Made by a program: the position numbers and the translations under genes. A stretch of 64,000 bases of DNA from a phage. Positions 18,839-32,272 of this stretch are shown one piece after another (position 1 is the first letter of the stretch; each line of letters begins with the position of its first letter). The DNA lies in the sequence record PZ445515.1; one strand, written 5' to 3'. The notes beneath the pieces were generated by a model that was given only the letters and a program-made list of their open reading frames with translations, was not told the DNA's origin and did not search any database.

Positions 18839-19010
18839 TATGAAATCAGTTGTAATTATTGGTGTTAACACTCGCGGTATTCGTACTACGAAAACTGTTA
18901 AAACTTCTAACGTTGCTGAAATAACTACGAACCCTAAAAAGTTTGATTTCGCCAAAGTCTCAGCAGTTATGACAGAACAATCTTTTAACCAAGCATTGGG
19001 GATGAAATAA
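18839..19010 (+). CDS. hypothetical small protein
   Basis: 56 aa ORF with RBS GAGAGGAAG; stop overlaps next ATG. Confidence 0.4.
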
Positions 19011-19444
19011 TGGGTGAAAATATTCTAATGACCCTTCGTGGACTACTTAGTCTAGCACGTACTCACGGTGATAAGGAACGGGCACTTAATCTTCAGACCA
19101 TGATTGGTGATCTGCAACGTATTGATAAAGACATTGTTACTCGAACCGAGTTCGTAGCCTATCTGAAAGCTCAGATTAAGGCTCTAGAAAATGCAAAACA
19201 ACGCGCTATTAAAGTTGGTATGGAAGTTCCTACTGATGTAGACTATGAGCAACTGCTTTATTCCATGCTGCAAGAGTATCAGCCAAGTCAACTGACTGAG
19301 GTTCAGATTCGTGAGTATTTTGCAGAACTGGTTAAATTAAACCCAGGTATTACCAAAGCTCTATTAATGAAAACTATTAAGGCAGAATTTCCCGGACGTT
19401 ATGACGGTAAAACAACTGCTTTGATTGCTAGTGAATTTTTCTAA
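19010..19444 (+). CDS. hypothetical protein
   Basis: 144 aa ORF. Confidence 0.55.
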   Translation: MGENILMTLRGLLSLARTHGDKERALNLQTMIGDLQRIDKDIVTRTEFVAYLKAQIKALENAKQRAIKVGMEVPTDVDYEQLLYSMLQEYQPSQLTEVQIREYFAELVKLNPGITKALLMKTIKAEFPGRYDGKTTALIASEFF

Positions 19445-19452
19445 AAATTCAT

Positions 19453-19481
19453 TTGCTAAATGCTTATAAATTCTGTATAAT
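19453..19481 (+). promoter_or_regulatory. T5-type early promoter (no ORF follows)
   Basis: TTGCTA -35, 17 bp, TATAAT -10; followed by about 800 nt without ORF. Confidence 0.6.
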
Positions 19482-19704
19482 ATATTCATAAATTAGGGAA
19501 CAGCGAGCCGATTACGCTGAGTGCAGAATCCCAACCGGAGCGCATTGAATAGAGTCGGTGGGTTAGTTGTAAAACTAGTACACAGGGGGCGGCAATCCCG
19601 GTTAGTGGCTAGAACGTGTAAAATGAGGCGTCTGAAACCTCTCCCCTAAACTCTTCTCTGATTTATAAATAGTGGGGTGTGGAAATCACTTATGTAGTAA
19701 CACT

Positions 19705-19776
19705 GCCGTCCTAGTATAATTGGTATTATCAAGCCGTAACTGGTGGAAGATGTAGGTTCGAATCCTACGGTCGGTA
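19705..19776 (+). ncRNA. tRNA-like element (no encoded CCA, poor D/anticodon arms)
   Basis: T-arm gtagg-TTCGAAT-cctac and 6/7 acceptor pairing, but no 3' CCA unlike all other tRNAs here. Confidence 0.3.
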
Positions 19777-20278
19777 AGAACTGGATAACTGATGCTTTTA
19801 ACATAAAAGCTTCCGAGGTTAGTTGCGCACTGCCTAAACCACGCGGTAGTTGGTTCCAGACTAACCAACCAGTCTGCTGAATAGTTTTATTACGATTTAA
19901 CTATGTCCAGGCTAAAGAAGAACTTTAGAAGGTATTCTAGGATAGTGAAGTTCTTTCTCCATATCGGAGTAGTTTTTCAAGCTATCCACAAAGTGGGAAA
20001 TGCTGACATGAGAGATGTCACTAATGGTGCACAATAGCACAGGTAATTCGCGATAACTCCTGTTGAGTAGCAGCAAAAGGTGGGAAGTCATGACCCCAAG
20101 CCTAACCGAGTCCTCAATATACCGCAGGACATAACCACTAAGTCACCCTGACTTAAACTGGAAAATAATAGACGTTACTGTATTTTGTCTTGAAATACTT
20201 AATGAGTGAGACTTATGACTCTCCCGGTATCGTCTGTATTTTTAAGAGTTTTTACGAGAGTTCTTAAAAATACTTAAA

Positions 20279-20350
20279 CGGGGTGTAGTCTAAGGGAGAG
20301 GCAGGAGTCTTCTAAATTCCTTTATGCAGGTTCGAATCCTGTCACCTCGG
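20279..20350 (+). tRNA. tRNA-Arg (anticodon TCT)
   Basis: Acceptor cggggtg/cacctcg, anticodon loop CTTCTAA, T-loop TTCGAAT, CCA encoded. Confidence 0.8.
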
Positions 20351-20387
20351 CCAATTTTATTAACTGTAACTAAAACAAAGGAAATAT

Positions 20388-21358: not shown

Positions 21359-21394
21359 AAGCCCGCGTTTCCTACGAGAGCGCGGGCTTTTCTG
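21359..21394 (+). terminator. rho-independent terminator
   Basis: Hairpin gcccgcg...cgcgggc followed by TTTTCTG. Confidence 0.7.
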
Positions 21395-23289: not shown

Positions 23290-23318
23290 TTGCTTGAATG
23301 CTAAATTCTCTGTATAAT
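23290..23318 (+). promoter_or_regulatory. T5-type early promoter
   Basis: TTGCTT -35, 17 bp, TATAAT -10. Confidence 0.6.
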
Positions 23319-23348
23319 ATATCTATAAATTTGAGAGAGGAACCAAAT

Positions 23349-23867
23349 ATGAATGTTGATGAGCTAACACAGCACCTCTTATCCAGAGGATTTGATACAG
23401 ATAAATATCATTGCTGGTTAAGTCCGGAAGGATGGCTAACAGTCCCGTTGTATGACTTCTCCGGGATGTTGCGAGGCTATCAGACGTATAATCCTTCTGC
23501 TCCAAAAGGTCATGGTAAGTGTCCCTTTGAAGCTAAATATTTTACTTATTCTACTACCCAGTGTGTATGGGGACTAGAAACTCTCAATGGAGATGAAAAA
23601 GTAGTATTGATCGCTGAATCTGTATTTAAGGCAGTTGCGCTACATAACGCTGGTTATCCAGCCCTGGCAATGTTAGGTTCTTCTCCAGGAAAAGCGTTAT
23701 TAAAGCAACTGAAATTATTACCTTTTAAATTGGTAGCTGTCGGAGACAACGATCCTGCGGGTGAAAAATTTGCTAGAAAATTAAACGGCTTTGTTTCTCC
23801 CGTAGATGTGGATGAGATGTCTACCGAAAACTTGAAAAATTTTCTTGCTATGAAGCTAAATTTCTAA
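23349..23867 (+). CDS. hypothetical protein with Toprim-like motif
   Basis: 172 aa from ATG 23349; VVLIAESVFKAV...VGDNDPAGEKFA resembles Toprim fold; tentative. Confidence 0.35.
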   Translation: MNVDELTQHLLSRGFDTDKYHCWLSPEGWLTVPLYDFSGMLRGYQTYNPSAPKGHGKCPFEAKYFTYSTTQCVWGLETLNGDEKVVLIAESVFKAVALHNAGYPALAMLGSSPGKALLKQLKLLPFKLVAVGDNDPAGEKFARKLNGFVSPVDVDEMSTENLKNFLAMKLNF

Positions 23868-23873
23868 TATAAT
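23845..23873 (+). promoter_or_regulatory. T5-type promoter overlapping CDS end, driving tRNA cluster
   Basis: TTGCTA -35, 17 bp, TATAAT -10. Confidence 0.5.
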
Positions 23874-23888
23874 ATATCTTATAAATTC

Positions 23889-23974
23889 GGAAGAATAGCA
23901 TAACGGTATTGCAGCAGATTGCTAATCTGTCGGTTTGAAATATAGCCTTGTGGGTTCGATTCCCACTTCTTCCG
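23889..23974 (+). tRNA. tRNA-Ser (anticodon GCT)
   Basis: Acceptor ggaagaa/ttcttcc, anticodon loop TTGCTAA, long variable arm, T-loop TTCGATT, CCA encoded. Confidence 0.8.
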
Positions 23975-23983
23975 CCAAATTCT

Positions 23984-24058
23984 GGTTCTCAAGCTCATAT
24001 GGTATGAGCACCCGGCTCATAACCGGAAGGTACGTAGGTTCGAATCCTCGGGGAGCCA
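23984..24058 (+). tRNA. tRNA-Met/Ile2 (anticodon CAT)
   Basis: Acceptor ggttctc/gggagcc, D-stem gctc/gagc, anticodon loop CTCATAA, CCA encoded; T-stem imperfect. Confidence 0.7.
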
Positions 24059-24081
24059 CCAACTTAATTAGGGGATTACAA

Positions 24082-24270
24082 GTGGAATTATACATAGTTT
24101 ATGTTGTATTTATTCAAGATAGAGAATACCCGGATGAATATAAAAAAGGATATAGGTTAGCCAGAGCTACCTCTGAGGCCCAAGCTATGGATAAAGTGGC
24201 AGATTATATGATTATGGTAGAAAACGTATACTATATCGACTCCCTTGAAGCCTCAAAAGTAATTGACTAA
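24082..24270 (+). CDS. hypothetical small protein
   Basis: GTG start after AGGGGA; longer ORF-track version would overlap two tRNAs. Confidence 0.35.
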   Translation: MELYIVYVVFIQDREYPDEYKKGYRLARATSEAQAMDKVADYMIMVENVYYIDSLEASKVID

Positions 24271-24279
24271 GGAGACTAT

Positions 24280-24465
24280 ATGTCCAAGTTTCAAGAACTC
24301 AAGCAAGAGCTAGAAGAATGTGCCTGCCCTGAGTGTAGGGGAATTGGTGAAAGTTCTGATGCAGAAGCAGGAGATACTTTTTGCAATATCTGGATTTGTT
24401 CAAATTGCAACGGTACAGGTATTAATCCTAACTGCGGTGTTTCCCTAGATATTGAACGAGGATAA
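24280..24465 (+). CDS. small Cys-rich (zinc-ribbon-like) protein
   Basis: 61 aa; CPEC...CSNC pairs. Confidence 0.5.
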   Translation: MSKFQELKQELEECACPECRGIGESSDAEAGDTFCNIWICSNCNGTGINPNCGVSLDIERG

Positions 24466-24566
24466 TACCTGTGAAACTAAAAGATTATTATATTGGTTGG
24501 TTTGTGGGACTAGTAGTAGGATTTTCACTAGGCTATAATATGTATCAACTAATAAACTGATTACAT

Positions 24567-24640
24567 GGGGGTGTAATCGAATTGGTATAGGTACTGGACT
24601 TAAAATTCAGGTTTTGTGGGTTCGAATCCCACCACCCCTA
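24567..24640 (+). tRNA. tRNA with anticodon TAA (Leu-type anticodon, short variable arm)
   Basis: Acceptor gggggtg/cacccct, anticodon stem ctgga/ttcag loop CTTAAAA, T-loop TTCGAAT, CCA encoded. Confidence 0.65.
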
Positions 24641-24658
24641 CCAACTTAAGGAAATAAG

Positions 24659-24826
24659 ATGTATAGACATCCACCTCCGCCAACACGTCGTTCTAGAGAA
24701 GTTATCCTCATGGAATTGACGAAAAACTTCAAGGCAACTCTTGAAGATAGAGATCTAGGCACAGATGAAGACATTGATTTTATTTGTAGACTATTAAACA
24801 TGAAACTGGAGAAACAACATGGCTAA
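24659..24826 (+). CDS. hypothetical small protein
   Basis: 55 aa ORF right after tRNA; stop overlaps next ATG. Confidence 0.4.
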   Translation: MYRHPPPPTRRSREVILMELTKNFKATLEDRDLGTDEDIDFICRLLNMKLEKQHG

Positions 24827-25025
24827 TCCCGAAATTACCGCACAACGTTTCATGCTTAAAGGCATGATTGCTGAGGCAGGTATGACTCAAGAGGTTGCAG
24901 ACTTTCATAAGCAATTTCTTGATATTATAACCCTAGCTAAAGAGACAGGAGAAAGAGAACACGGAGCAGCAATTATGGCTATATCTCTTATTAGCCTAGA
25001 CTTAGCTGAAGAATCTGGAGTTTAG
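24819..25025 (+). CDS. hypothetical protein
   Basis: 68 aa ORF. Confidence 0.5.
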   Translation: MANPEITAQRFMLKGMIAEAGMTQEVADFHKQFLDIITLAKETGEREHGAAIMAISLISLDLAEESGV

Positions 25026-25055
25026 CTCCTCCAAACAGAATTTTTAAAAATGTAC

Positions 25056-25085
25056 TTGCCTTTTGCTTTAAATTTCTGGTATAAT
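25056..25085 (+). promoter_or_regulatory. T5-type early promoter
   Basis: TTGCCT -35, 18 bp, TATAAT -10. Confidence 0.5.
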
Positions 25086-25115
25086 AGTTATATAAATTGA
25101 TGAAGGAGTTAACGA

Positions 25116-25391
25116 ATGCAAAATCGTGTTATAGCAACTGGTATTGAAAGTGCAATCTGTAAATCCTGGGAAGGCTGGGAAGGTGAGATTGAATGGCTTT
25201 ATTTCTACGATGTAGAACTTCTGCCGGAAGTTAAAGCTAAATGTATTGAAGCTGGCATGGCTCCAGATGCAAAAGCTGATATTGATATTTCAATGTCTGA
25301 ACTTAAAGGTCGTGTAATTACTGTTAGTGATGAGGGCGAAGAAGTTTTCGAACTTCCATTCTCCTTAACTGTCGCTCCTAAGTTCGACTAA
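25116..25391 (+). CDS. hypothetical acidic protein
   Basis: 91 aa ORF. Confidence 0.5.
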   Translation: MQNRVIATGIESAICKSWEGWEGEIEWLYFYDVELLPEVKAKCIEAGMAPDAKADIDISMSELKGRVITVSDEGEEVFELPFSLTVAPKFD

Positions 25392-25427
25392 CTAATACAG
25401 CACTGAGCAAGTTCTTTAAAATTTGAC

Positions 25428-25456
25428 TTGCTCAGTGCCATAAAACTTGATATAAT
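25428..25456 (+). promoter_or_regulatory. T5-type early promoter
   Basis: TTGACT/TTGCTC -35, 17 bp, TATAAT -10. Confidence 0.55.
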
Positions 25457-25519
25457 AGTTATCTAATTTGGAAACATATCTAAAAGTGTTTAAACTAGTA
25501 TTTGAATACTTTTAAATAT

Positions 25520-25607
25520 GTTGGATTAGTATCGTAGAGGTAGCGAAGCAGACTGTAAATCTGCCGACTCGGAAGGGTCTCGGGTGGTTCGACTCCATCA
25601 TCCAACA
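25520..25607 (+). tRNA. tRNA-Tyr (anticodon GTA)
   Basis: Acceptor gttggat/atccaac, anticodon stem gcaga/tctgc loop CTGTAAA, long variable arm, T-loop TTCGACT, CCA encoded. Confidence 0.8.
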
Positions 25608-25617
25608 CCAAATTTAA

Positions 25618-25691
25618 GTCCTGTTAGACAAACTGGTAAAGTCACTACCCTTTCAAGGTAGGATTTGCGGGTTCGATCCCCGCACAGGACG
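25618..25691 (+). tRNA. tRNA-Glu (anticodon TTC)
   Basis: Acceptor gtcctgt/acaggac, anticodon stem ctacc/ggtag loop CTTTCAA, T-loop TTCGATC, CCA encoded. Confidence 0.8.
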
Positions 25692-25699
25692 CCAATTCC

Positions 25700-25776
25700 T
25701 GCATTCCTAGAGTGTTACTGGACAGCATGTCGGTCTCCAAAACCGTACGGTCTAGGTTCGAGTCCTAGTAGGTTTG
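25700..25776 (+). tRNA. tRNA-like, probable tRNA-Trp (anticodon CCA); 5' boundary uncertain
   Basis: Anticodon arm cggtCTCCAAAaccg like E. coli tRNA-Trp, T-arm ctagg-TTCGAGT-cctag, CCA encoded; acceptor pairing not found. Confidence 0.4.
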
Positions 25777-25785
25777 CCAAAATTT

Positions 25786-25857
25786 GCACCTTTAGCTGAG
25801 ATGGATTAGCGCTTGCCTGAAGAGCTTGAGAGGTTCGTTCGATACGAACAGGGTGCA
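25786..25857 (+). tRNA. tRNA (anticodon probably GAA, Phe)
   Basis: Acceptor gcacctt/agggtgc, T-arm gttcg-TTCGATA-cgaac, CCA encoded; anticodon stem imperfect. Confidence 0.6.
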
Positions 25858-26142
25858 CCAAATTGAGGGAGCTGCTGATGCACCCTGAAAACTTCTTTAT
25901 TTACTGCGCGGATAAGTTGCTGAAACGTAGAATTAACAAAGTCTATCATTATCGTGCTAGTCAACAGCCTTATGTATACGCTTTTGACGGTGATCACATT
26001 CCATTAGAACAATTATCCTGTGATTACATGATATTGAAGAACTTTGACGAGACAAAGATCTCAAGCGTTCATAATCGACAGAATCCCTTAACGTGGAAAT
26101 ATAAGAAGAAAAAGAAAGGCATCAAATTTTTAAAAAATGTAG

Positions 26143-26171
26143 TTGCTTAGTTTCCAAAAGTTCTGTATAAT
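26143..26171 (+). promoter_or_regulatory. T5-type early promoter
   Basis: TTGCTT -35, 17 bp, TATAAT -10. Confidence 0.6.
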
Positions 26172-26219
26172 AATTACATAAATTGAACTGGAGAAGCAAC
26201 ATGACAGAACAAGATAAAT

Positions 26220-26292
26220 CGACCGTTGGCTGAATGGCTTAGGCGAAGGATTGCAAATCCTTTTTATGTGAGTTCAAATCTCATGCGGTCGT
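26220..26292 (+). tRNA. tRNA-Cys (anticodon GCA)
   Basis: Acceptor cgaccgt/gcggtcg, anticodon stem aagga/tcctt loop TTGCAAA, T-loop TTCAAAT, CCA encoded. Confidence 0.8.
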
Positions 26293-26297
26293 CCAAT

Positions 26298-26438
26298 TTG
26301 CTGAAAGAGTTGTTAAATCAATTCAGGCACGCGTAGGAACACTGTCTCCGTAATTGAAAGATGAGGCACGGTTTGGAGAGGTATGCCGCTACACGCTACG
26401 GTGCTAACTCCGTCTAGGTGAAAATCCTAGTCAGCAAT
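26298..26438 (+). ncRNA. tRNA-like / stable-RNA candidate (about 140 nt)
   Basis: 7-nt ends ttgctga/tcagcaa complementary, T-arm-like ctagg-TGAAAAT-cctag at 3' side; no CCA; too long for tRNA. Confidence 0.25.
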
Positions 26439-26447
26439 ATAAATTTA

Positions 26448-26527
26448 GGGTCGTTAGCCAAGCGGTTTGGCGGTGGACTGTTAATCCATGTCGAAAGACA
26501 ACGTAGGTTCGAATCCTACACGGCCCG
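26448..26527 (+). tRNA. tRNA with anticodon GTT (Asn-type) and unusually long variable arm
   Basis: Acceptor gggtcgt/acggccc, D-stem gcca/tggc, anticodon stem gtgga/tccat loop CTGTTAA, T-loop TTCGAAT, CCA encoded. Confidence 0.65.
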
Positions 26528-26632
26528 CCAAATTCTGTGTAGAGTTAAGTAAACCGGTAGCCAACCAGCTATCATTGCTGACATCGAATTCAGTCACAGA
26601 TACCATTTTCATTAATAACTGAGGAAACAAGC

Positions 26633-26818
26633 ATGTCCAAGAATGTAATTGCACAGCTAGAAGTTCATCGTGATAGCACTATCAACAATATTGAAGTTGA
26701 GAAGAAATACATCGAAGAACTTAAACATGATATACTAGTAAGTCTCAACCGTCTTAATGTACGAAAAAAGTTTCTTAAAGAACTTAATGCAGCTATTGAA
26801 AAACTCAAAGCTGAGTAA
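26633..26818 (+). CDS. hypothetical small coiled-coil protein
   Basis: 61 aa ORF. Confidence 0.5.
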   Translation: MSKNVIAQLEVHRDSTINNIEVEKKYIEELKHDILVSLNRLNVRKKFLKELNAAIEKLKAE

Positions 26819-26827
26819 ATGAATTAT

Positions 26828-26901
26828 GCGACCGGGGCTGGCTTGGTAATGGTACTCCCCTGTCACGGGAGGGAATGTGGGTTCAAATCCCATCGGTCGC
26901 G
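26828..26901 (+). tRNA. tRNA-Asp (anticodon GTC)
   Basis: Acceptor gcgaccg/cggtcgc, anticodon stem ctccc/gggag loop CTGTCAC, T-loop TTCAAAT, CCA encoded. Confidence 0.8.
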
Positions 26902-26930
26902 CCAAATTAAACTAGTACGAGAAATATGCT

Positions 26931-27278
26931 ATGATTAATGCTAAAGAAGAATTGTTACTTGCCTTAAAGAATATTAATTCTGAAGTTAAGTGTATTAAGA
27001 TAGAATTCGGTTATTATGGGGACAAAGAAGTTTGGGTGTTACCCGTAGGTTATACAGAAAAAGATATTGAAGATTTTCTAAATAATCTAGACTTTAAATA
27101 TGATTCTGGTTTCGGTGGGCAATTGCTTTATGGTAACGTGTGGTTTACTGATGGAACTTGGTTAGAACGTGGTGAATACGACGGTTCTGAATGGTGGGAA
27201 TATAAGGCTACACCAGCAATCCCAGAAGAATGCCGAACAATTAATGGTGAAGTAGATAATACTTTACGGTTAAACTAA
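26931..27278 (+). CDS. hypothetical protein
   Basis: 115 aa ORF. Confidence 0.55.
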   Translation: MINAKEELLLALKNINSEVKCIKIEFGYYGDKEVWVLPVGYTEKDIEDFLNNLDFKYDSGFGGQLLYGNVWFTDGTWLERGEYDGSEWWEYKATPAIPEECRTINGEVDNTLRLN

Positions 27279-27670
27279 TAAAATTTCAGTGCAGAACACG
27301 GAGCTAGCAATTCGGAAGTGCTGACTCATGATAAGCTGCCTATGTACTTGCGAAGCGGTCGTGTCCAAGACTCGGACTCTTGCACTGAAAACAATCAAAC
27401 ATTCTAGCGTGGTTGATGGGGAAACCAGCTTGGCGAGGGCAGAAGCTCGTTCGATTCGAGTGAAAGAATGGTTCTCGTAAGTCCGCACAAGTGATAACAG
27501 GTTCGAGTCCTGTCTAGAATGACACTATAAAGTTTACTTATTATGTAGGTTCCGATAGATCGGCGGGTCTATTCTGGCACTTAAGAGAGGTCTCGCAAAC
27601 TTCTTTGTCAGCCGTGGGGTTGGTAGCCTCCAGGTGGCCTACACAATAAGTAAATTTATTAAAAATTCAT

Positions 27671-27699
27671 TTGCTATTATGCTTAATTCTCTGTATAAT
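27671..27699 (+). promoter_or_regulatory. T5-type early promoter
   Basis: TTGCTA -35, 17 bp, TATAAT -10. Confidence 0.6.
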
Positions 27700-27731
27700 A
27701 TACCTTATAAAGTGTTGAGAAGGAAAGCAAA

Positions 27732-27929
27732 ATGAAAAAAGTTTTACTGCTGTCTGTATTCCTACTTACTGGTTGTTTTAAACTTGACTCAACCATTAAT
27801 AAAGAGTATGAATTTGCTAAAAATTTCTGTGGCGGAGAGAGTAATATAAAGAATTTCTACATATATAGTACAATTCCTAGTACCGTTTATTGTGTAGACG
27901 GACGAATTATTAATATTCCTCCACAATAA
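27732..27929 (+). CDS. small putative lipoprotein
   Basis: 65 aa; signal peptide with lipobox LLTGC. Confidence 0.5.
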   Translation: MKKVLLLSVFLLTGCFKLDSTINKEYEFAKNFCGGESNIKNFYIYSTIPSTVYCVDGRIINIPPQ

Positions 27930-27938
27930 AAGAATTAA

Positions 27939-28011
27939 CAGTGCGTAGCGCAGTTGGTAGCGTGGGAGCCTTGGATGCTTCGGGTCGCAGGTTCGAGTCC
28001 TGCCGCACTGA
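27939..28011 (+). tRNA. tRNA-Pro (anticodon TGG)
   Basis: Standard 73-nt cloverleaf: acceptor cagtgcg/cgcactg, D-stem gcgc/gcgt, anticodon loop CTTGGAT, T-loop TTCGAGT, CCA encoded. Confidence 0.85.
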
Positions 28012-28020
28012 CCAAACAAT

Positions 28021-28095
28021 TGCGGGTTAGATCTCTGGTAGAGATCGCTAGTCTCATAAGCTAGAAAGAGGTAGGTTCGATTCCTGCACCCGCTT
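28021..28095 (+). tRNA. tRNA-Met/Ile2 (anticodon CAT)
   Basis: D-stem gatc/gatc, anticodon stem ctagt/gctag loop CTCATAA, T-loop TTCGATT, CCA encoded. Confidence 0.75.
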
Positions 28096-28118
28096 CCATT
28101 TTAATAGAGGATTTCGAA

Positions 28119-28286
28119 ATGAAAGTATTTCGATTAGTAGTAAGTGACAAACGGTTAGGTAAGAATACATCAAAATCCTTACTCGCTCATTATGGTAAAA
28201 ATTGGGATGAAGTAATGGTAGAGTTTAGTACTAATCACCCTTACTTAAAAGTCCACTCTATTAAAGAAGTGTATAATGGTTACTAA
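28119..28286 (+). CDS. hypothetical small protein
   Basis: 55 aa ORF between two tRNAs. Confidence 0.4.
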   Translation: MKVFRLVVSDKRLGKNTSKSLLAHYGKNWDEVMVEFSTNHPYLKVHSIKEVYNGY

Positions 28287-28287
28287 T

Positions 28288-28363
28288 AGATCGCTAGCTC
28301 AATAGGTTTAGTAGCATCCGACTTTTAATCGGAAGGTTCTGGGTTCGAGTCCCAGGCGATCTA
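28288..28363 (+). tRNA. tRNA-Lys (anticodon TTT)
   Basis: Acceptor agatcgc/gcgatct, anticodon stem tccga/tcgga loop CTTTTAA, T-loop TTCGAGT, CCA encoded. Confidence 0.8.
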
Positions 28364-28384
28364 CCAATTTCAAGAAAAACGCAG

Positions 28385-28413
28385 TTGCTTAATGCTTAAT
28401 TTCTTGTTATAAT
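28385..28413 (+). promoter_or_regulatory. T5-type early promoter (drives non-coding block plus tRNAs)
   Basis: TTGCTT -35, 17 bp, TATAAT -10. Confidence 0.6.
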
Positions 28414-28430
28414 ATTTATATAAATTGATG

Positions 28431-28650
28431 AGGAGAAATCCTCATCATAGTTCACTAAGGTATTAGCTCGACCTAGGACTGGCTGCCAAAAAGCACGATC
28501 CCTACGATTCGGGAGAAGTTCTAGATTAGTCCACTAGATTCAGTGGCAACTGAATAGTGTATCGGGTTTGCGAGATGACGCGGTTCCTTCCGCTCGAAGC
28601 GAAGGTGCTGTAGTTACGCCGAGCTAATAGCCTTAGTAAACTAAATAATT
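28431..28650 (+). ncRNA. candidate structured non-coding RNA
   Basis: No ORF; hairpin gatgagga...tcctcatc at 5' end; 10-nt complementary pair tattagctcg/cgagctaata enclosing about 150 nt. Confidence 0.3.
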
Positions 28651-28651
28651 T

Positions 28652-28727
28652 GGGGAATGGGTCTGCATGGAGTGGACACCTCGCTTGCACCGAGGACATC
28701 AGAACGGTTCGATTCCGTTATTCTCCA
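28652..28727 (+). tRNA. tRNA-Ala (anticodon TGC)
   Basis: Acceptor ggggaat/attctcc, anticodon stem cctcg/cgagg loop CTTGCAC, T-loop TTCGATT, CCA encoded. Confidence 0.8.
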
Positions 28728-28735
28728 CCAAATAC

Positions 28736-28809
28736 GCGTGATTGATGGAATTGGCATACATACCGTCCTTAGAAGTCGGGTTTTGAGGGTTCGAATCCCT
28801 TGTCACGCA
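28736..28809 (+). tRNA. tRNA with anticodon TAG (Leu-type anticodon, short variable arm)
   Basis: Acceptor gcgtgat/gtcacgc, anticodon loop CTTAGAA, T-loop TTCGAAT, CCA encoded. Confidence 0.65.
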
Positions 28810-28924
28810 CCAAATTTGATGGTCAGAGTAAATTAAACCTACTATCTCGGTTGAGCTGTTTTAATGGGTTCGAATCCCAGCGAGGCGTAACTGCCTGGTG
28901 TGATAGAGGCATCATCTTGTTATT

Positions 28925-29012
28925 GGAAGAGCAAATCGAATTGGTGACGAAAACCGCTTGGAAAGTGGCTGACTGGTAAAACGGCTTGAGAGTTCAAATC
29001 TCTCCTCTTCCG
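28925..29012 (+). tRNA. tRNA-Ser (anticodon GGA)
   Basis: Acceptor ggaagag/ctcttcc, anticodon loop TTGGAAA, long variable arm, T-loop TTCAAAT, CCA encoded. Confidence 0.75.
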
Positions 29013-29027
29013 CCAAACAATTTATAT

Positions 29028-29119
29028 GGTAGGTCAATCCAATGGCTGGCGCTGGACTCCGACTTGAAATCGGTTGATCGTAGTGATACGGTGTAAGGGT
29101 TCGATCCCCTTACCTACCT
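29028..29119 (+). tRNA. tRNA-Ser (anticodon TGA)
   Basis: Acceptor ggtaggt/acctacc, anticodon loop CTTGAAA, long variable arm, T-loop TTCGATC, CCA encoded. Confidence 0.75.
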
Positions 29120-29488
29120 CCAAATCCTGAAGTATGCCGGAATCGGTAGACGGGGCTGCCTAAAAGGTTTATAGGGAACATCCACTCCCTGCAACATACC
29201 TCATAAAGCGGCTGAGATAAATGGTCTATCTCGTGAAGGTTCAAGTCCTTCTGCTTCTTGATACACCAATGGCTCAAAGTGTAACGGTGCTATTTGATGC
29301 GCTTAGTAAGACTTCCCCGACATGCGTTCGGGAGTAAGCTGCTAAGACTAGAGTAGAAGAGTTTCTGAGAGCCGCCACAATTGAAAATTCGTACTCGTCT
29401 TGAGCTGCGTGCAATAGGAGATAACTTGATTAGTATTCTAGAACATGCTAATTGAGGAAGGTTTCGCTAACCCTGCGAGTTTTCAATT

Positions 29489-29562
29489 GTGGCTATATCA
29501 TAATTGGTTAATGATCCTGATTGTGAATCAGGCCTATGTGGATTCGAATTCCACTAGCCACC
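29489..29562 (+). tRNA. tRNA-His (anticodon GTG)
   Basis: Acceptor gtggcta/tagccac, anticodon stem cctga/tcagg loop TTGTGAA, T-loop TTCGAAT, CCA encoded. Confidence 0.8.
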
Positions 29563-29590
29563 CCAAATTAACTTAAATAGGAAATAAAAT

Positions 29591-29785
29591 ATGGCTGATT
29601 TCTGCAAACAATGCTCCATTGATATGTGGGGTAAAGATACTGGTGATCTTTCTGGTTTGATTACAGAAGCTGAGGTCAAAGAAGGTTATGGTGCAGTTGT
29701 GATTTGCGAAGGATGCGGCGTTATTCGTGTTGATCATGAAGGCAAACGTTTGGAAGAATCTGAGCCAACAACAATTTTTCCGTAG
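29591..29785 (+). CDS. small Cys-rich (zinc-ribbon-like) protein
   Basis: 64 aa; CKQC...CEGC pairs. Confidence 0.5.
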   Translation: MADFCKQCSIDMWGKDTGDLSGLITEAEVKEGYGAVVICEGCGVIRVDHEGKRLEESEPTTIFP

Positions 29786-29797
29786 AATAAAAATTAT

Positions 29798-29870
29798 TGG
29801 GATGTAGATCAATTGGCAGATCGTCGGCCTCTGACTCCGAAGGTTCCACGTTCGATCCGTGGCATCCCAG
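29798..29870 (+). tRNA. tRNA-Gln (anticodon CTG)
   Basis: Acceptor tgggatg/catccca, anticodon loop CTCTGAC, T-loop TTCGATC, CCA encoded. Confidence 0.8.
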
Positions 29871-29879
29871 CCAAATAAT

Positions 29880-29952
29880 TGGAGAGTAGTGTAACGGTTA
29901 GCACAACGGCCTTTGACTCCGTTAATGGTAGGTTCGATTCCTCCTTCTCCAG
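29880..29952 (+). tRNA. tRNA-Gln (anticodon TTG)
   Basis: Acceptor tggagag/ttctcca, anticodon loop CTTTGAC, T-loop TTCGATT, CCA encoded. Confidence 0.8.
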
Positions 29953-29962
29953 CCAAACAATA

Positions 29963-30036
29963 AGCGGTTAAGCACACGGGTTGTGCCGCAGGCCTTCCAA
30001 GCCTCGCTGAGTAGGGTTCGATTCCCTCTAGCCGCT
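29963..30036 (+). tRNA. tRNA-Gly (anticodon TCC)
   Basis: Acceptor agcggtt/tagccgc, anticodon loop CTTCCAA, T-loop TTCGATT, CCA encoded. Confidence 0.8.
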
Positions 30037-30055
30037 CCAACTTTAAGGAAACATT

Positions 30056-30307
30056 ATGCACGTTTTTGAGTTTCGTAATAAAAGTACCGAAAAACGAGTT
30101 ATTGTTATTGGAGAAACATACCGAGCATACGAACAAACTGACGGCTCTGTTATCCTGAATGATGAGAAAGGAGGTTTTAGCTTTTATCCAGAAGAACCTT
30201 ATGAAGAGTTTCGAAAACAATTTAACCTAGACTGGAGAAAGCATTTAAACACTGTTGCTTCATCTGTAGTATTGCCAACTACCAGTACTGTACTCTCTAA
30301 TGGCTGA
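30056..30307 (+). CDS. hypothetical protein
   Basis: 83 aa ORF. Confidence 0.5.
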   Translation: MHVFEFRNKSTEKRVIVIGETYRAYEQTDGSVILNDEKGGFSFYPEEPYEEFRKQFNLDWRKHLNTVASSVVLPTTSTVLSNG

Positions 30308-30464
30308 TAACCTAAAAGTCAAGATCGATAAACAAAAGAAACGTGTAGAAGTAGAGATTGGTGAAGAACGTGTAGCCTTCACCTTTGAATTTCTACAACA
30401 AATGGCAATGGCGGTTATGACTGATAAGTCTCCTGTTATTGAAAAAGAAATCCCGTTGAAATAA
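30300..30464 (+). CDS. hypothetical small protein
   Basis: 54 aa ORF, ATG overlaps upstream stop. Confidence 0.4.
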   Translation: MADNLKVKIDKQKKRVEVEIGEERVAFTFEFLQQMAMAVMTDKSPVIEKEIPLK

Positions 30465-30472
30465 CGGGTTCT

Positions 30473-30556
30473 GCTGGGTTGGCAGAATGGTTGAATGCAC
30501 CTGATTTGTAATCAGGAGGAGTAATCCCGTTACAGGTTCGAATCCTGTGCCCAGCA
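30473..30556 (+). tRNA. tRNA with anticodon TGT (Thr-type) and 15-nt variable arm
   Basis: Acceptor gctgggt/gcccagc, anticodon stem cctga/tcagg loop TTTGTAA, T-loop TTCGAAT, CCA encoded. Confidence 0.7.
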
Positions 30557-30573
30557 CCAACTTAAGGACTATT

Positions 30574-30741
30574 ATGTTTAAATTATTAGTAGTTATCTGG
30601 TATAGTCAATCAAATAGAGCGAATACCTCCCACGTTATAGACTTTAATACTAAAAATGAAGCTGAAAAAGCATATTCTAATTTAATAGAACGTAATAAAG
30701 AATCTCGTAGTATAGTTTATGAAGTGACTAAACTTTATTAA
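30574..30741 (+). CDS. hypothetical small membrane protein
   Basis: 55 aa from ATG 30574; hydrophobic N-terminus. Confidence 0.45.
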   Translation: MFKLLVVIWYSQSNRANTSHVIDFNTKNEAEKAYSNLIERNKESRSIVYEVTKLY

Positions 30742-30748
30742 AAATTCA

Positions 30749-30778
30749 TTTGCTTTCTCTCTTATTTATTGTTATAAT
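30749..30778 (+). promoter_or_regulatory. T5-type early promoter
   Basis: TTGCTT -35, 18 bp, TATAAT -10. Confidence 0.6.
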
Positions 30779-30808
30779 ATTTATATAAATTAATGAGAGG
30801 GAAGCCAA

Positions 30809-31102
30809 ATGAAACGTTATCTTTCTGTTGTGTTCCAAACTGGTGGTCAACGCTATACCTATGAATTTCCTGGCTCTTGGAAGATCAAAGAAGGTGATCA
30901 AGTAGTAGTGTTAACACCGCGTGAGGGTTTTAAGGTAGTAACGGTTAAGCAAGTATTTCCAAAAGAGCATGAACCAGCTAAAGGCATTCGCTATAAGATG
31001 ATTCATGGTGTAGTTCGTCAAGTACCACGAGCGGAAGTCGAAATCAAAGTAGATAAAGATGGTAAACTTAAATATACCTCTTGCTTAGACGAGTTGCTAT
31101 AA
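30809..31102 (+). CDS. hypothetical protein
   Basis: 97 aa ORF. Confidence 0.55.
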   Translation: MKRYLSVVFQTGGQRYTYEFPGSWKIKEGDQVVVLTPREGFKVVTVKQVFPKEHEPAKGIRYKMIHGVVRQVPRAEVEIKVDKDGKLKYTSCLDELL

Positions 31103-31308
31103 TGAGGATTACTTTTACAGAAAAGATCATGAGTAATGGTGTTATGATCATTACCGCATGGGATGGTAATCAGTGGTGTAGTGTTTCAGGTATTAAGCCT
31201 GAAGAACAAACACTAGAAAATATCTCAAAGATTAAGCGAAGAATGGCAGAACGTGCACGACTTCCAGGTGCACCTAGAAATGGCAAACGTTCTGCTGCAA
31301 AATGTTAA
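31081..31308 (+). CDS. hypothetical protein (start 31081 or in-frame ATG 31102)
   Basis: 75 aa ORF overlapping upstream gene end. Confidence 0.45.
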   Translation: MLRRVAIMRITFTEKIMSNGVMIITAWDGNQWCSVSGIKPEEQTLENISKIKRRMAERARLPGAPRNGKRSAAKC

Positions 31309-31309
31309 T

Positions 31310-31383
31310 GCTTCGGTAGCTTAGCGATCTAAAGCACTCGGCTGATAACCGAGAGATCGGGGGTTTAAATCCCTCCCGGAGTA
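31310..31383 (+). tRNA. tRNA-Ile (anticodon GAT)
   Basis: Acceptor gcttcgg/ccggagt, anticodon stem ctcgg/ccgag loop CTGATAA, atypical T-loop TTTAAAT, CCA encoded. Confidence 0.75.
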
Positions 31384-31400
31384 CCAAATTAAGGTTATGT

Positions 31401-31559
31401 ATGGAAGATATTGATAAACTTGCAAAAATATTTGCTGAACTTTCTGATATAGAAGTCTCAGAGAACTCTAGAATAGATATGTTTATTGACCAATATAGAG
31501 AAGGACTTATCAGTAAGAAAGATCTTCTAGATCTAACCTATAAAGAATTAACTAGTTAG
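31401..31559 (+). CDS. hypothetical small protein
   Basis: 52 aa ORF; TAG stop overlaps 5' end of next tRNA. Confidence 0.4.
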   Translation: MEDIDKLAKIFAELSDIEVSENSRIDMFIDQYREGLISKKDLLDLTYKELTS

Positions 31560-31626
31560 TTGGCAGAGTGGTTATGCACCTCCTTCATACGGAGCGACTA
31601 CAGTGGTTCAAATCCACTACTAACTA
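31554..31626 (+). tRNA. tRNA-Met (anticodon CAT)
   Basis: Acceptor agttagt/actaact, anticodon loop TTCATAC, T-loop TTCAAAT, CCA encoded. Confidence 0.75.
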
Positions 31627-31666
31627 CCATTAAAAGAGCTAGAGATAGCTAACTTTAGGAGCAGCT

Positions 31667-31861
31667 ATGTTAACAATTAAAATAATGTCAGCCAAGAATG
31701 GGGAACAGATTCATACAGGCAAAAGTGTAAGCTTTAATCCTAGAAATAAAAGATTGGCTATAGTTGGAGTAGACCAAGCCATCTTTTTAAAAGAAGATGA
31801 AGTAGCATATGTCATGAACCAAACTGGTAAGACAGTTTCCGTATACTATGGAAAAGTATAA
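31667..31861 (+). CDS. hypothetical protein
   Basis: 64 aa ORF. Confidence 0.5.
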   Translation: MLTIKIMSAKNGEQIHTGKSVSFNPRNKRLAIVGVDQAIFLKEDEVAYVMNQTGKTVSVYYGKV

Positions 31862-31903
31862 AGAATAAATAGCTGAGCCAAATTCTAACATCGGGGAGAT
31901 CTA

Positions 31904-32272
31904 ATGAAAGCATATCAAAATCTTAAATCTGGCGTAATTAACCTTGTTCATGAAAATCAGATTATTCAGCTATACTCCGACAACGGTGAACTTAAACAGA
32001 AAGTTCTAGTTGAAGATCTAGAAGGTATCACACCACAATTCGATCCCGAAGCCTTCCGTGAAGTCAAAGTGGAAGTCGCCCCTCAAATCGAAGGTGGTCA
32101 GCACCTAAATGTCAATGTGTTAAGCTGTGATCAGCTTTTGGATGCGCAGAAACATCCTGAAAAATATCCTCAGTTGACCATCCGTGTCTCTGGTTACGCT
32201 GTTCGATTTAACGCACTGACTCGTGAACAACAGAACGACGTTATTAGTCGTACATTTACTCAGGCGATGTAA
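31904..32272 (+). CDS. grcA: autonomous glycyl radical cofactor (GrcA/YfiD-like)
   Basis: 122 aa; [10 protein letters not shown]...[23 protein letters not shown] matches YfiD/PFL C-terminal glycyl-radical domain. Confidence 0.8.

What the first reader, a model, noticed from the sequence alone, without database searches (positions are those of the whole stretch)
19482..20278. Strong promoter followed by about 800 nt with no ORF before tRNA-Arg
The T5-type promoter at 19453-19481 is followed by ORF-free sequence containing a tRNA-like element without CCA (19705-19776) and a hairpin ggttggtt-ccagact-aaccaacc near 19850. Elsewhere in the window each such promoter is followed within about 35 nt by an ORF or tRNA. 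The transcript is likely one or more non-coding RNAs.
Basis: seen in the sequence. Interest (0 to 1): 0.45.

Follow-up and report, generated by a model that had tools for sequence, protein, structure and literature searches.

The report
T5 RNAX: large structured phage RNA
The ORF-free 800 bases behind this strong promoter are the gene for RNAX, a large non-coding RNA of T5-like phages that GenBank already lists as a "stable RNA with unknown functions"; comparison across relatives shows it is an elaborately folded RNA with a built-in tRNA look-alike.

Summary
A T5-type promoter (19453-19481) is followed by about 790 nt with no conserved ORF, ending at tRNA-Arg (20279).

The locus is not new. 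The interval is 97.9-99.3% identical to the feature 'rnaX / RNAX, stable RNA with unknown functions', driven by 'promoter P16-17', in the GenBank records of Salmonella phage 5 and BF23. T5 and DT571/2 carry the same feature over the 3' 79% of the interval.

What I add is comparative.
- The unit runs from the promoter to a 17-bp hairpin and is syntenic in more than 500 Demerecviridae genomes, at 0.64-1.33 kb.
- Its proposed helices covary strongly.
- G·U pairs outnumber A·C 107 to 7, so the + strand RNA is what folds.
- No ORF survives beyond near-identical relatives.

The architecture has four main parts. A 5'-terminal helix encloses an optional module. A multi-helix junction contains a tRNA-like cloverleaf without an anticodon loop or CCA, whose acceptor stem continues into a 12-bp covarying helix. 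A conserved 3' domain carries an invariant palindromic loop, GUCAUGAC. A 3' hairpin closes the unit.

Rfam has no family for it: there is no GOLLD, ROOL or YrlA match. In kind it resembles the large ornate phage RNAs found next to tRNA islands. Its function remains unknown.

The parts
19453..19481 (+). T5-type sigma-70 promoter (P16-17): TTGCTA, 17-nt spacer, TATAAT
   Evidence: One search gives 10 of 12 consensus matches. Searches show it annotated as promoter P16-17. One search shows the same extended consensus (AAAATTCATTTGCT...TATAAT...TTCATAAATT) as about 19 other promoters in the window.
19488..20278 (+). RNAX transcript body. I infer the 5' end at A19488, by analogy with T5 early promoters that start at the A of CATAAATT (from memory). 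GenBank puts the start at about 19494. The 3' end is taken as the base before tRNA-Arg.
   Evidence: GenBank misc_RNA rnaX in AJ604531 (785 nt) and AY543070 (719 nt), mapped through 99.3% and 93% identical alignments. The ends are not verified experimentally here.
19488..19666 (+). P1 helix (19488-19500 pairs with 19654-19666). It sequesters the 5' end and encloses the optional 5' module.
   Evidence: 13 pairs, 97% of 258 cells paired, against 43-53% when the partner is slid. In T5 proper the same helix closes on a loop of about 7 nt and the 150-nt module is absent.
19501..19653 (+). Optional 5' module. Hairpin 19501-05/19515-19, whose loop GCCGAUU (19507-13) can pair with AGUCGGU (19553-59), a candidate pseudoknot.
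   Evidence: the 19507-13/19553-59 pairing is 98% paired; the Pectobacterium phage DU_PP_V has one compensatory change in each of the two helices. The module is absent in T5 and L015 and is replaced by an HNH endonuclease ORF in L005, L010, L011, L034 and L042.
19672..19842 (+). Long-range helix GUGG (19672-75) / CCAC (19839-42), which closes the multi-helix junction domain
   Evidence: 100% paired in 96 cells, with 2 pairs changed on both sides (ACGG/CCGU in DU_PP_V, AUGG/CCAU in KKP_3711; alignment).
19685..19793 (+). Flank helix in three 4-bp segments (19685-88/19790-93, 19690-93/19785-88, 19695-98/19780-83), separated by conserved C·C and G·G mismatches. It extends the acceptor stem of the tRNA-like module through the conserved internal loop AACACU / AAGA.
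   Evidence: 12 pairs, 99.4% paired, 8 pairs with changes on both sides. The helix is retained even in EPS7-type phages that lack the cloverleaf.
19705..19776 (+). tRNA-like cloverleaf. Acceptor 19705-11/19769-75, with conserved G1·U/A72 and U5·U68 mismatches. D stem 19714-17/19726-29. T arm 19752-56/19764-68. The elbow nucleotides U8, A14, G18, G19, A21, T54-Psi55-C56 and A58 are present. The 'anticodon arm' is a variable short hairpin with a 6-nt loop. There is no CCA.
   Evidence: Rfam tRNA 35.5 bits; covariation in the T, D and acceptor stems, with GGUUC.A..CC and the D-loop GG invariant. ARAGORN is negative in the window. The arm is a hairpin with a 3-5 nt loop in DU_PP_V and a long insert in Sugarlandvirus.
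19794..19810 (+). Hairpin d (GCUUUU-AACAU-AAAAGC)
   Evidence: 6 pairs, 91.6% paired, 3 compensatory.
19816..19835 (+). Hairpin e (loop UUGCGCA). In larger family members it is the site of 50-60 nt expansions.
   Evidence: Read by eye from alignment A3: GGCAG/CUGCC in Epseptimavirus, and expansions closed by GCUG/CAGC in Sugarlandvirus. My own count on the projected alignment found only 45% of cells paired, no better than slid controls (19-50%). This element is therefore unconfirmed.
19849..19869 (+).
   Evidence: 70% paired, 4 compensatory pairs.
19905..19970 (+). Optional domain (helix 19917-25/19948-56 enclosing hairpin 19927-31/19934-38), present in about half of the representatives
   Evidence: 95% and 80% paired; 3 compensatory pairs in the inner hairpin.
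19985..20235 (+). Conserved 3' domain. It contains hairpin 20003-09/20015-21, helix 20039-43/20059-63, hairpin 20082-85/20094-97 presenting the invariant loop AGUCAUGA (palindrome GUCAUGAC, 20086-93), hairpin 20110-14/20126-30, the invariant AUAACCAC (20131-38), the invariant hairpin AAGUCA-CCC-UGACUU (20140-54), and UAAACUGGAA (20155-64).
   Evidence: alignment, invariant columns; 27 pairs, 81.1% paired against 26-41% slid; covariation 0.238 against 0.129 in shuffles, 0 of 500 shuffles as high.
20236..20273 (+). 3' hairpin: 17 bp with a UACG tetraloop. It is the most conserved element of the unit and marks its 3' boundary.
   Evidence: 96.1% paired, 6 compensatory pairs (shuffle mean 2.5; 0 of 500). 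A 38-42 nt stretch is 90-100% identical in about 450 phage records, including a different subfamily. In some genera ORFs are inserted after it, not before it.
20279..20353 (+). tRNA-Arg(TCT). It is co-transcribed, and its 5' processing would define the RNAX 3' end.
   Evidence: The processing step is an inference from the general role of RNase P.

Best explanation
The interval is the gene for RNAX, a large and highly structured non-coding RNA of T5-like phages (Demerecviridae). It is about 790 nt here and 0.64-1.33 kb across the family.

Shown here:
- It has its own strong early-type promoter.
- It has no conserved ORF.
- The + strand RNA folds into a modular structure maintained by compensatory evolution.
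- The modules are: a helix pairing the very 5' end (P1); an optional 5' module with a candidate pseudoknot; a closed multi-helix junction whose main arm is a 12-bp helix topped by a tRNA-like cloverleaf with a conserved D/T elbow but no anticodon loop and no CCA; a conserved 3' domain with an invariant palindromic loop; and a terminal 17-bp UACG hairpin.

Inferred:
- The RNA is made as the first part of a P16-17 -> RNAX -> tRNA-Arg -> SPFH-gene transcript.
- Its 3' end is released by RNase P cutting at the 5' end of tRNA-Arg.
- The paired 5' end and the 3' hairpin protect it from RNase E and from 3' exonucleases, which would explain why it accumulates as a 'stable RNA'.

Most likely mode of action (inference, about 0.3): it works as a folded RNA in trans. 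It presents a tRNA-shaped elbow on a long stalk to a tRNA-recognising partner, either as a mimic or decoy for enzymes or defence nucleases that act on tRNA, or as a scaffold linked to the phage's own tRNA island. This is the way YrlA Y RNAs and the large GOLLD/ROOL RNAs of other phages are thought to act.
For: Identity with the annotated RNAX:
-. The window is 100% identical to T5_ev212 and 99.3% to phage 5, whose record carries misc_RNA rnaX 'stable RNA with unknown functions' and promoter P16-17 at the matching coordinates.

Conservation and synteny:
- 396 records by megablast and 526 by blastn.
- They span Tequintavirus, Epseptimavirus, Sugarlandvirus and Hongcheonvirus, always in the order promoter -> unit -> hairpin -> (ORFs) -> tRNA-Arg.

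Not coding:
- ORFs are intact in only 3-5 of 23 representatives.

Structure:
- 34 pairs, 91.3% paired against 34-41% slid, 18 compensatory pairs against 8.8 in shuffles, 0 of 500.
- the 3' hairpin.
- the 3' domain.
- P1, the closing helix and the other hairpins.
- the single-sequence MFE of 19668-19846 reproduces the covariation-supported fold.

Strand:
- G·U 107 against A·C 7.

Specificity:
- A covariance model of the tRNA-like domain scores 94-149 bits in every full T5-like locus. It scores 66-71 bits in EPS7-type loci and at most 45 bits on true tRNAs and in control phage loci.

Unit boundary:
- ORFs are inserted only after the 3' hairpin.
Against: - No transcript data could be examined. 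'Stable RNA' rests on a database note, and I found no paper describing RNAX in the library.
- Thermodynamic stability is unremarkable: z = -1.33 for the whole RNA and -0.24 for the junction domain.
- Large parts are dispensable in some lineages. The 5' module is absent in T5 itself and is replaced by an HNH gene in several Epseptimaviruses. The cloverleaf body is replaced by a hairpin of about 50 nt in EPS7-type phages. The tRNA mimicry therefore cannot be the whole function.
- The long helix flanking the cloverleaf may hinder, or make unnecessary, RNase P processing at that site.
- The functional part of the statement has no direct support.
Confidence: 0.85

Rival explanations
1. The region is a cis-acting leader. 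On this view it is a long structured 5' leader that only serves the expression or processing of the downstream tRNA-Arg (and the SPFH gene), with no trans function of its own.
For: It is co-transcribed with tRNA-Arg from one promoter, and the next terminator lies after the SPFH gene at 21359-21389. In the window the 3' hairpin sits 5 nt from the tRNA.
Against: In Epseptimavirus and Sugarlandvirus, ORFs totalling about 500 nt separate the hairpin from tRNA-Arg, yet the unit is kept intact. A 0.64-1.33 kb multi-domain fold with invariant loops is far more than any known tRNA leader needs. The other tRNAs of the same island have no such leader.
Confidence: 0.08
2. The region is evolutionary debris: decayed tRNA genes plus scars of homing-endonuclease traffic in a recombination-prone tRNA island, transcribed but functionless.
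For: HNH and other ORFs move in and out of the locus, and modules are gained and lost. The tRNA-like element is called a pseudo-tRNA by several annotation pipelines. GenBank lists other small 'tRNA-like RNAs' in the island.
Against: Compensatory substitutions maintain more than 60 base pairs across four genera. Invariant single-stranded motifs and loops persist where the flanking sequence has diverged to about 70% identity. The 'pseudo-tRNA' keeps its elbow nucleotides and is embedded in a covarying 12-bp helix, which a decaying gene would not acquire.
Confidence: 0.03
3. The region encodes one or more small proteins (the 23-45 aa ORFs).
For: ORFs of 42, 45 and 44 aa exist on the + strand. Some pipelines annotate 'hypothetical proteins' here.
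Against: These ORFs are intact only in near-identical genomes, 3-5 of 23 representatives. Elsewhere they are interrupted by stops, frameshifts or deletions, even in T5. No ribosome-binding site or ORF lies within the usual 13-28 nt of the promoter box.
Confidence: 0.02
4. The conserved elements act at the DNA level. The palindromes and inverted repeats would be protein-binding, nicking or homing-endonuclease target sites, and the RNA fold would be incidental.
For: The 3' hairpin and GTCATGAC are (near-)palindromes that are more conserved in sequence than a stem requires. Mobile ORFs insert right next to the hairpin.
Against: G·U pairs are frequent (107 cells) and A·C pairs rare (7) in the helices. 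This asymmetry makes sense only for the + strand RNA. Long-range helices 150-170 nt apart covary, which DNA sites do not require. A DNA-level role for the hairpin in addition to its RNA role is not excluded.
Confidence: 0.04

Closest known systems
RNAX of bacteriophages T5, BF23 and phage 5 (GenBank AY543070, NC_042564, AJ604531; misc_RNA 'stable RNA with unknown functions')
   Same: It is the same locus. Identity is 97.9-99.3% over the whole interval for BF23 and phage 5. For T5 it is 93% over the 3' 79%. The promoter (P16-17) and the downstream tRNA-Arg are the same.
   Different: Nothing differs in identity. The public records give only coordinates and a name. I found no structure, family or function described in Rfam or in the paper library.
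GOLLD RNA (Rfam family; large ornate phage and prophage RNA)
   Same: GOLLD is a large RNA of about 800 nt or more, encoded by phages, next to tRNA islands. [quoted passage not shown] Symmetric kissing loops with palindromic sequences hold its homo-oligomer together (PMC12286853; PMC5737381). RNAX shares the size, the context, the variable 5' / conserved 3' layout, an embedded tRNA-like unit and an invariant palindromic loop.
   Different: There is no match to the Rfam GOLLD model at E <= 10 in the window or in the 1.3-kb Sugarlandvirus form. The helices and conserved motifs are unrelated by eye. The hosts are Enterobacterales, not Lactobacillales, mycobacteria or marine bacteria. Oligomerisation of RNAX is untested.
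ROOL RNA
   Same: ROOL is a large RNA of about 580 nt, with many junctions, found in phages and prophages near tRNAs. It is abundant and non-essential, and its function is unknown.
   Different: There is no Rfam match. ROOL has no embedded tRNA-like module.
YrlA-type bacterial and phage Y RNAs
   Same: YrlA is a non-coding RNA in which a tRNA-like module (T arm, D arm, conserved elbow contacts) lacks a canonical anticodon loop and is joined to a long stem formed by flanking sequence. It is recognised by tRNA enzymes (PMC4201824).
   Different: YrlA is about 100 nt, is defined by a Ro60/Rsr-binding stem, and is encoded next to rsr. RNAX is 6-13 times larger, gives no YrlA match at E <= 10 in Rfam, and I saw no Ro60 context (not searched systematically).
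Canonical tRNA (Rfam RF00005)
   Same: The acceptor, D and T arms and the elbow nucleotides are present. The score is 35.5 bits, above the gathering score of 29.
   Different: RNAX has no 7-nt anticodon loop, and that arm varies freely in length and sequence. It has no CCA. It has conserved 1-72 and 5-68 mismatches. Its flanks are base-paired to each other. ARAGORN rejects it in the window.

Membership tests
T5 RNAX (annotated stable RNA of Tequintavirus tRNA region) | Same genomic interval between promoter P16-17 and tRNA-Arg(TCT), with homologous sequence | tested here: met
   99.3% identity to AJ604531, where misc_RNA rnaX covers the equivalent of window 19494-20278.
T5 RNAX (annotated stable RNA of Tequintavirus tRNA region) | Accumulates as a stable RNA species in infected cells | not testable with these tools
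   Only the database note is available. No expression data or paper was accessible.
tRNA | Cloverleaf with acceptor, D and T arms and conserved elbow nucleotides | tested here: met
   Rfam 35.5 bits against a gathering score of 29. The T, D and acceptor stems covary. G18, G19, T54, Psi55, C56 and A58 are invariant or nearly so.
tRNA | 5-bp anticodon stem with a 7-nt loop carrying an anticodon | tested here: not met
   In the window the stem is 3-4 bp with a 6-nt loop, GUAACU. DU_PP_V has a 3-5 nt loop and Sugarlandvirus a long insert. ARAGORN makes no call in the window, and gives inconsistent calls (Ser-ACT, SeC-TCA, none) in relatives.
tRNA | Single-stranded 3' end with an encoded or addable CCA; free 5' leader | tested here: not met
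   The element is followed by AAGA, and both flanks form a conserved 12-bp helix. CCA addition after processing cannot be tested here.
GOLLD RNA | Match to the family covariance model (conserved 3' domain) | tested here: not met
   No hit at E <= 10 in 796-nt, 1281-nt and 2-kb searches.
GOLLD RNA | Large phage-encoded RNA next to tRNA genes with a variable 5' and a conserved 3' region | tested here: met
   This is a resemblance in kind, not homology.
GOLLD / ROOL / OLE-type RNA-only assemblies | Homo-oligomerisation through symmetric kissing loops and A-minor bridges | not testable with these tools
   Only a lead exists: the invariant palindrome GUCAUGAC sits in a loop closed by a covarying stem.
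ROOL RNA | Match to the family covariance model | tested here: not met
YrlA / Y RNA | Match to the family model; Ro60/Rsr-binding stem; rsr gene nearby | tested here: not met
   No YrlA or Y RNA match was listed among Rfam hits at E <= 10. The neighbouring genes are a cell-wall hydrolase, DUF7616, a weak YqeY-like protein and SPFH. I did not search the whole phage for rsr.
tmRNA | tRNA-like domain formed by the 5' and 3' ends, plus a tag reading frame | tested here: not met
   ARAGORN finds no tmRNA. There is no conserved ORF.

The most novel reading that the evidence does not exclude
RNAX may be a previously uncurated class of 'ornate' large phage RNA and the enterobacterial counterpart of GOLLD and ROOL. 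On this reading it self-associates through its invariant palindromic loop (GUCAUGAC). It displays, or sequesters, a tRNA-shaped module on a stalk. It acts in the contest over tRNAs between phage and host, for example as a decoy for tRNA-targeting defence nucleases or as an organiser of the phage tRNA pool.
Probability: 0.25. Interest if true: 0.8.

Novelty: already known. Interest (0 to 1): 0.55.

Why it matters
Large, elaborately folded phage RNAs that sit beside tRNA islands (GOLLD, ROOL) were recently shown to build RNA-only nanocages. What they do is still unknown, and their hosts are poorly tractable.

RNAX has been carried in GenBank since the T5 genome was annotated, and I found no description of its structure. 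The comparison here shows it has the hallmarks of that kind of RNA:
- a size of 0.64-1.33 kb;
- a variable 5' and a conserved 3' part;
- an embedded tRNA-like unit;
- a palindromic loop.

It occurs in a classical, genetically tractable coliphage and in more than 500 sequenced relatives. If the resemblance is functional, T5 and E. coli would give a direct experimental handle on an open question. It would also add a non-tRNA player to the T5 tRNA island, whose tRNAs are already known to counter host defences such as PARIS and retrons.

If instead RNAX is only a stable by-product, that is still useful for annotation. Dozens of genome records currently call parts of it tRNA-Sec, tRNA-Pro, pseudo-tRNA or 'hypothetical protein'.

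Tried and rejected
Rfam searches
- I ran the window interval, a 2-kb context, ten relatives and the 1.3-kb Sugarlandvirus form at permissive thresholds. Only the tRNA model matched. The weak Hrs13, mir-3167 and SpF41 hits are far below their gathering scores and I treat them as chance.

Thermodynamic folding
- Whole-RNA folding is not informative by itself: z = -1.33 on the + strand and -0.52 on the - strand.

Small-ORF hypothesis
- Rejected.

Search for more distant relatives
- The metagenome scan with the tRNA-like pattern gave only 6 loci.
- The IMG/VR scan gave 22, mostly the same isolates.
- The scan of bacterial genomes for the 3' motif found nothing.
- Loci found through the neighbouring SPFH protein added T4-like and rV5-like phages, which contain no RNAX domain.

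Structural ideas that did not hold
- A loop-downstream pseudoknot at the 19850 hairpin (CAGAC / GUCUG) exists in the window but is not conserved. I dropped it.
- A long-range AGUGG / CCACU pairing (19992-96 / 20133-37) was not supported.
- Several of my first hand-assigned helix registers were off by 1-2 nt. I corrected them using the slid controls.

Neighbouring gene
- The upstream 144-aa protein is only a sub-threshold YqeY match (18 bits against a cut-off of 27). The attractive idea of a tRNA-binding partner encoded next door is unsupported. That gene is also not adjacent to the unit in Sugarlandvirus.

Literature
- Searches for RNAX or T5 stable RNAs in the held library found nothing relevant.
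Full report
**What the window is.** The region is 100% identical over 851 nt to several Tequintavirus genomes (T5_ev212, EC148, ECOP18 and others). It matches 396 phage records by megablast and 526 by blastn, almost all of them Demerecviridae of Escherichia, Salmonella, Klebsiella and their relatives. The window carries the T5 tRNA island, with 21 tRNAs found by ARAGORN.

**Checking the observation.**
- The promoter is real. It reads TTGCTA-17-TATAAT at 19453-19481 and matches 10 of 12 consensus positions. It has the extended T5 consensus shared by about 20 promoters in the window.
- After nearly all of those promoters, an ORF starts 2-52 nt, or a tRNA 2-36 nt, beyond the ATAAATT box. Here the next gene is tRNA-Arg, 785 nt away.
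- The only other long gap is at 28376. Judging by feature order, it corresponds to the interval annotated in GenBank as a different stable RNA, RNA 2H; I did not align the two.
- The largest ORFs in the interval are 42-45 aa.
- The tRNA-like element at 19705-19776 passes the Rfam tRNA gathering score (35.5 bits against 29). ARAGORN does not call it, and it is followed by AAGA rather than CCA.
- The hairpin near 19850 exists, but its stem is 7 bp, not 8 (GTTGGTT/AACCAAC, loop CCAGACT).

**It is already annotated.**
- GenBank AJ604531 (Salmonella phage 5 tRNA gene region) has misc_RNA 'rnaX', product 'RNAX', note 'stable RNA with unknown functions'. The feature runs from just after 'promoter P16-17' to the base before tRNA-Arg.
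- The window is 99.3% identical to that record. T5 (AY543070), BF23 and DT571/2 carry the same feature.
- The same records list seven further small 'stable' or 'tRNA-like' RNAs in the island.
- I found no paper on RNAX in the searchable library and no Rfam family for it.

**The unit and its distribution.**
- In every relative examined the order is promoter, non-coding unit, then a highly conserved 17-bp hairpin, then tRNA-Arg. This holds in Tequintavirus, Epseptimavirus, an Enterobacter phage, Sugarlandvirus of Klebsiella, Yersinia phiR2-01, and the Pectobacterium phage DU_PP_V from a different subfamily.
- The unit measures 644-1331 nt.
- Conservation is mosaic.
- The 5' ~150 nt are missing in T5 itself, where the enclosing helix simply closes on a short loop. 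In several Epseptimaviruses they are replaced by an HNH endonuclease gene.
- Extra domains of about 200 nt are inserted in Epseptimavirus and Sugarlandvirus.
- When ORFs have invaded the locus on the 3' side, they lie after the hairpin and before tRNA-Arg. The hairpin, not the tRNA, is therefore the 3' boundary of the unit.
- A 23-nt motif of the 3' domain is absent from one genome of each of 185,579 bacterial and archaeal species.

**It is not coding.** Each of the five largest + strand ORFs is intact only in near-identical genomes, 3-5 of 23 representatives clustered at 96% identity. Elsewhere they are disrupted or deleted. The 44-aa ATG ORF has five stops in T5.

**It is a folded RNA.** I clustered the units into 24 representatives and aligned them without reference to structure.

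*The domain around the tRNA-like element.*
- The test used 30 distinct sequences and 34 proposed pairs.
- 91.3% of cells are paired, against 34-41% when the partner is slid by 1-3 columns.
- 18 pairs have changes on both sides, against 8.8 in shuffles. No shuffle out of 500 reached the observed values.
- The best-supported element is not the cloverleaf but the helix formed by its flanks: 19685-98 with 19780-93. It has 12 pairs, 8 of them compensatory, and is 99.4% paired. Its three segments are separated by conserved C·C and G·G mismatches.
- This helix joins the acceptor stem through the conserved internal loop AACACU/AAGA.
- The acceptor, D and T stems also covary. The acceptor keeps two conserved mismatches, at 1-72 and 5-68.
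- The elbow nucleotides (D-loop GG, T-loop UUC.A) are invariant or nearly so.
- The 'anticodon arm' is free to vary. It has a 6-nt loop here, a 3-5 nt loop in DU_PP_V, and a long insert in Sugarlandvirus.
- A four-pair long-range helix (19672-75/19839-42) closes this domain. It shows double compensatory changes in two lineages.

*The other elements.*
- The 5' end (19488-19500) pairs with 19654-19666. This P1 helix is 97% paired.
- Inside the 5' module, a hairpin loop can pair with a downstream segment, giving a candidate pseudoknot. Each of the two helices has one compensatory change in DU_PP_V.
- The 3' domain helices are 81% paired, against 26-41% slid. Covariation is 0.238 against 0.129, with 0 of 500 shuffles as high.
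- The terminal hairpin is 96% paired with six compensatory pairs and has a UACG loop.
- One hand-assigned hairpin (19816-35) did not pass my own count: 45% paired, no better than slid controls. I list it as unconfirmed.

*Strand and thermodynamics.*
- Across the helices tested on alignments A2 and A3, G·U occurs in 107 cells and A·C in 7. The + strand RNA is therefore the selected molecule, not the DNA or the antisense strand.
- Thermodynamic z-scores are not remarkable. The evidence is evolutionary rather than energetic.

**The tRNA-like module is not universal.**
- A covariance model of the domain scores 94-149 bits in every full T5-like locus. It scores at most 45 bits on genuine tRNAs and in control phage loci.
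- In EPS7-type phages it scores 66-71 bits. There the cloverleaf body is replaced by a hairpin of about 50 nt, while the flank helix, the internal loop and the next hairpin are kept.
- The stalk is therefore more conserved than what it carries.

**Invariant motifs.** The 3' domain holds the most conserved single-stranded sequences: GAGUCAUGACC, AUAACCAC, the hairpin AAGUCA-CCC-UGACUU, and UAAACUGGAA. GUCAUGAC is an 8-nt palindrome presented in a loop whose closing stem covaries.

**How it probably works.**
- *Shown:* a promoter-driven, non-coding, structurally constrained + strand RNA with a defined 3' boundary.
- *Inferred from general RNA biology:* RNase P cleavage at tRNA-Arg releases the 3' end. 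In genera with inserted ORFs some other cut must do this; the long perfect hairpin is a plausible RNase III or protective element. The paired 5' end and the 3' hairpin would confer the stability recorded in the annotation.
- *Functional reading (inference, low confidence):* a trans-acting RNA that presents a tRNA-shaped elbow on a stalk to a tRNA-recognising partner. It may also self-associate through the palindromic loop.

**Comparison with known systems.**
- By kind, RNAX is closest to GOLLD and ROOL. Both are large, phage-borne RNAs beside tRNA islands. GOLLD has a variable 5' and a conserved 3' region, sometimes has tRNAs in a linker, and uses symmetric palindromic kissing loops in its oligomer (PMC12286853, PMC5737381).
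- By the way a tRNA-like module is grafted onto a stem, it is closest to YrlA Y RNAs (PMC4201824).
- It is not a member of any of these families. Their Rfam models do not match.

**Verdict.** The locus itself is already known as RNAX. The family-wide architecture described here is absent from Rfam and from the papers I could search, and the function remains open.

Noticed in passing
window 28376-28651: A second T5-type promoter is not followed by an ORF: 226 nt separate it from tRNA-Ala. Judging by feature order, this gap corresponds to the interval GenBank AJ604531 annotates as 'RNA 2H, stable RNA with unknown functions' after promoter P13b. I did not align the two.
   Followed up: partly
L053 (AJ604531 1-9900), equivalent to window ~23300-32000: The phage 5 record annotates seven more small RNAs of unknown function inside the tRNA island: RNAIII, RNA I, RNA1, RNA2 and RNA3 ('tRNA-like'), RNA 2H and RNAIV. 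None has an Rfam family at gathering score in the window.
   Followed up: no
L005 417-899, L010, L011, L034, L042 (Epseptimavirus): An HNH_3 homing-endonuclease ORF (160 aa) sits directly behind the RNAX promoter. It occupies the place of helix P1 and the 5' module, so in these phages the conserved RNAX core is the 3' part of an HNH mRNA.
   Followed up: partly
L005 1487-1996; L013 2080-2585: ORFs with no Pfam match are inserted between the RNAX 3' hairpin and tRNA-Arg: 169 aa in Epseptimavirus, and 108 + 58 aa in Sugarlandvirus. The hairpin flank seems to be a preferred insertion point.
   Followed up: no
L004 (T5) ~1200-1290 and L037: T5 and one metagenomic relative carry a tandem duplication of the AGUCACCUUGACUUAAACUGGAA motif, with an insert of about 60 nt, inside the RNAX 3' domain.
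   Followed up: no
window 23984-24058: Rfam finds a tRNA here (40.3 bits) that ARAGORN missed. By position it probably corresponds to the tRNA-Ile2 annotated in phage 5, but I did not align the two.
   Followed up: no
many GenBank records of T5-like phages: The RNAX tRNA-like module is variously annotated as tRNA-Sec, tRNA-Pro, tRNA-Ser, tRNA-OTHER or pseudo-tRNA, and parts of RNAX are annotated as 'hypothetical protein'. These look like annotation artefacts.
   Followed up: partly
window 19010-19444: The gene just upstream (144 aa; called 'tRNA amidotransferase' or 'YqeY domain protein' in many records) reaches only 18 bits against Pfam YqeY, whose cut-off is 27. The name rests on weak similarity.
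   Followed up: partly
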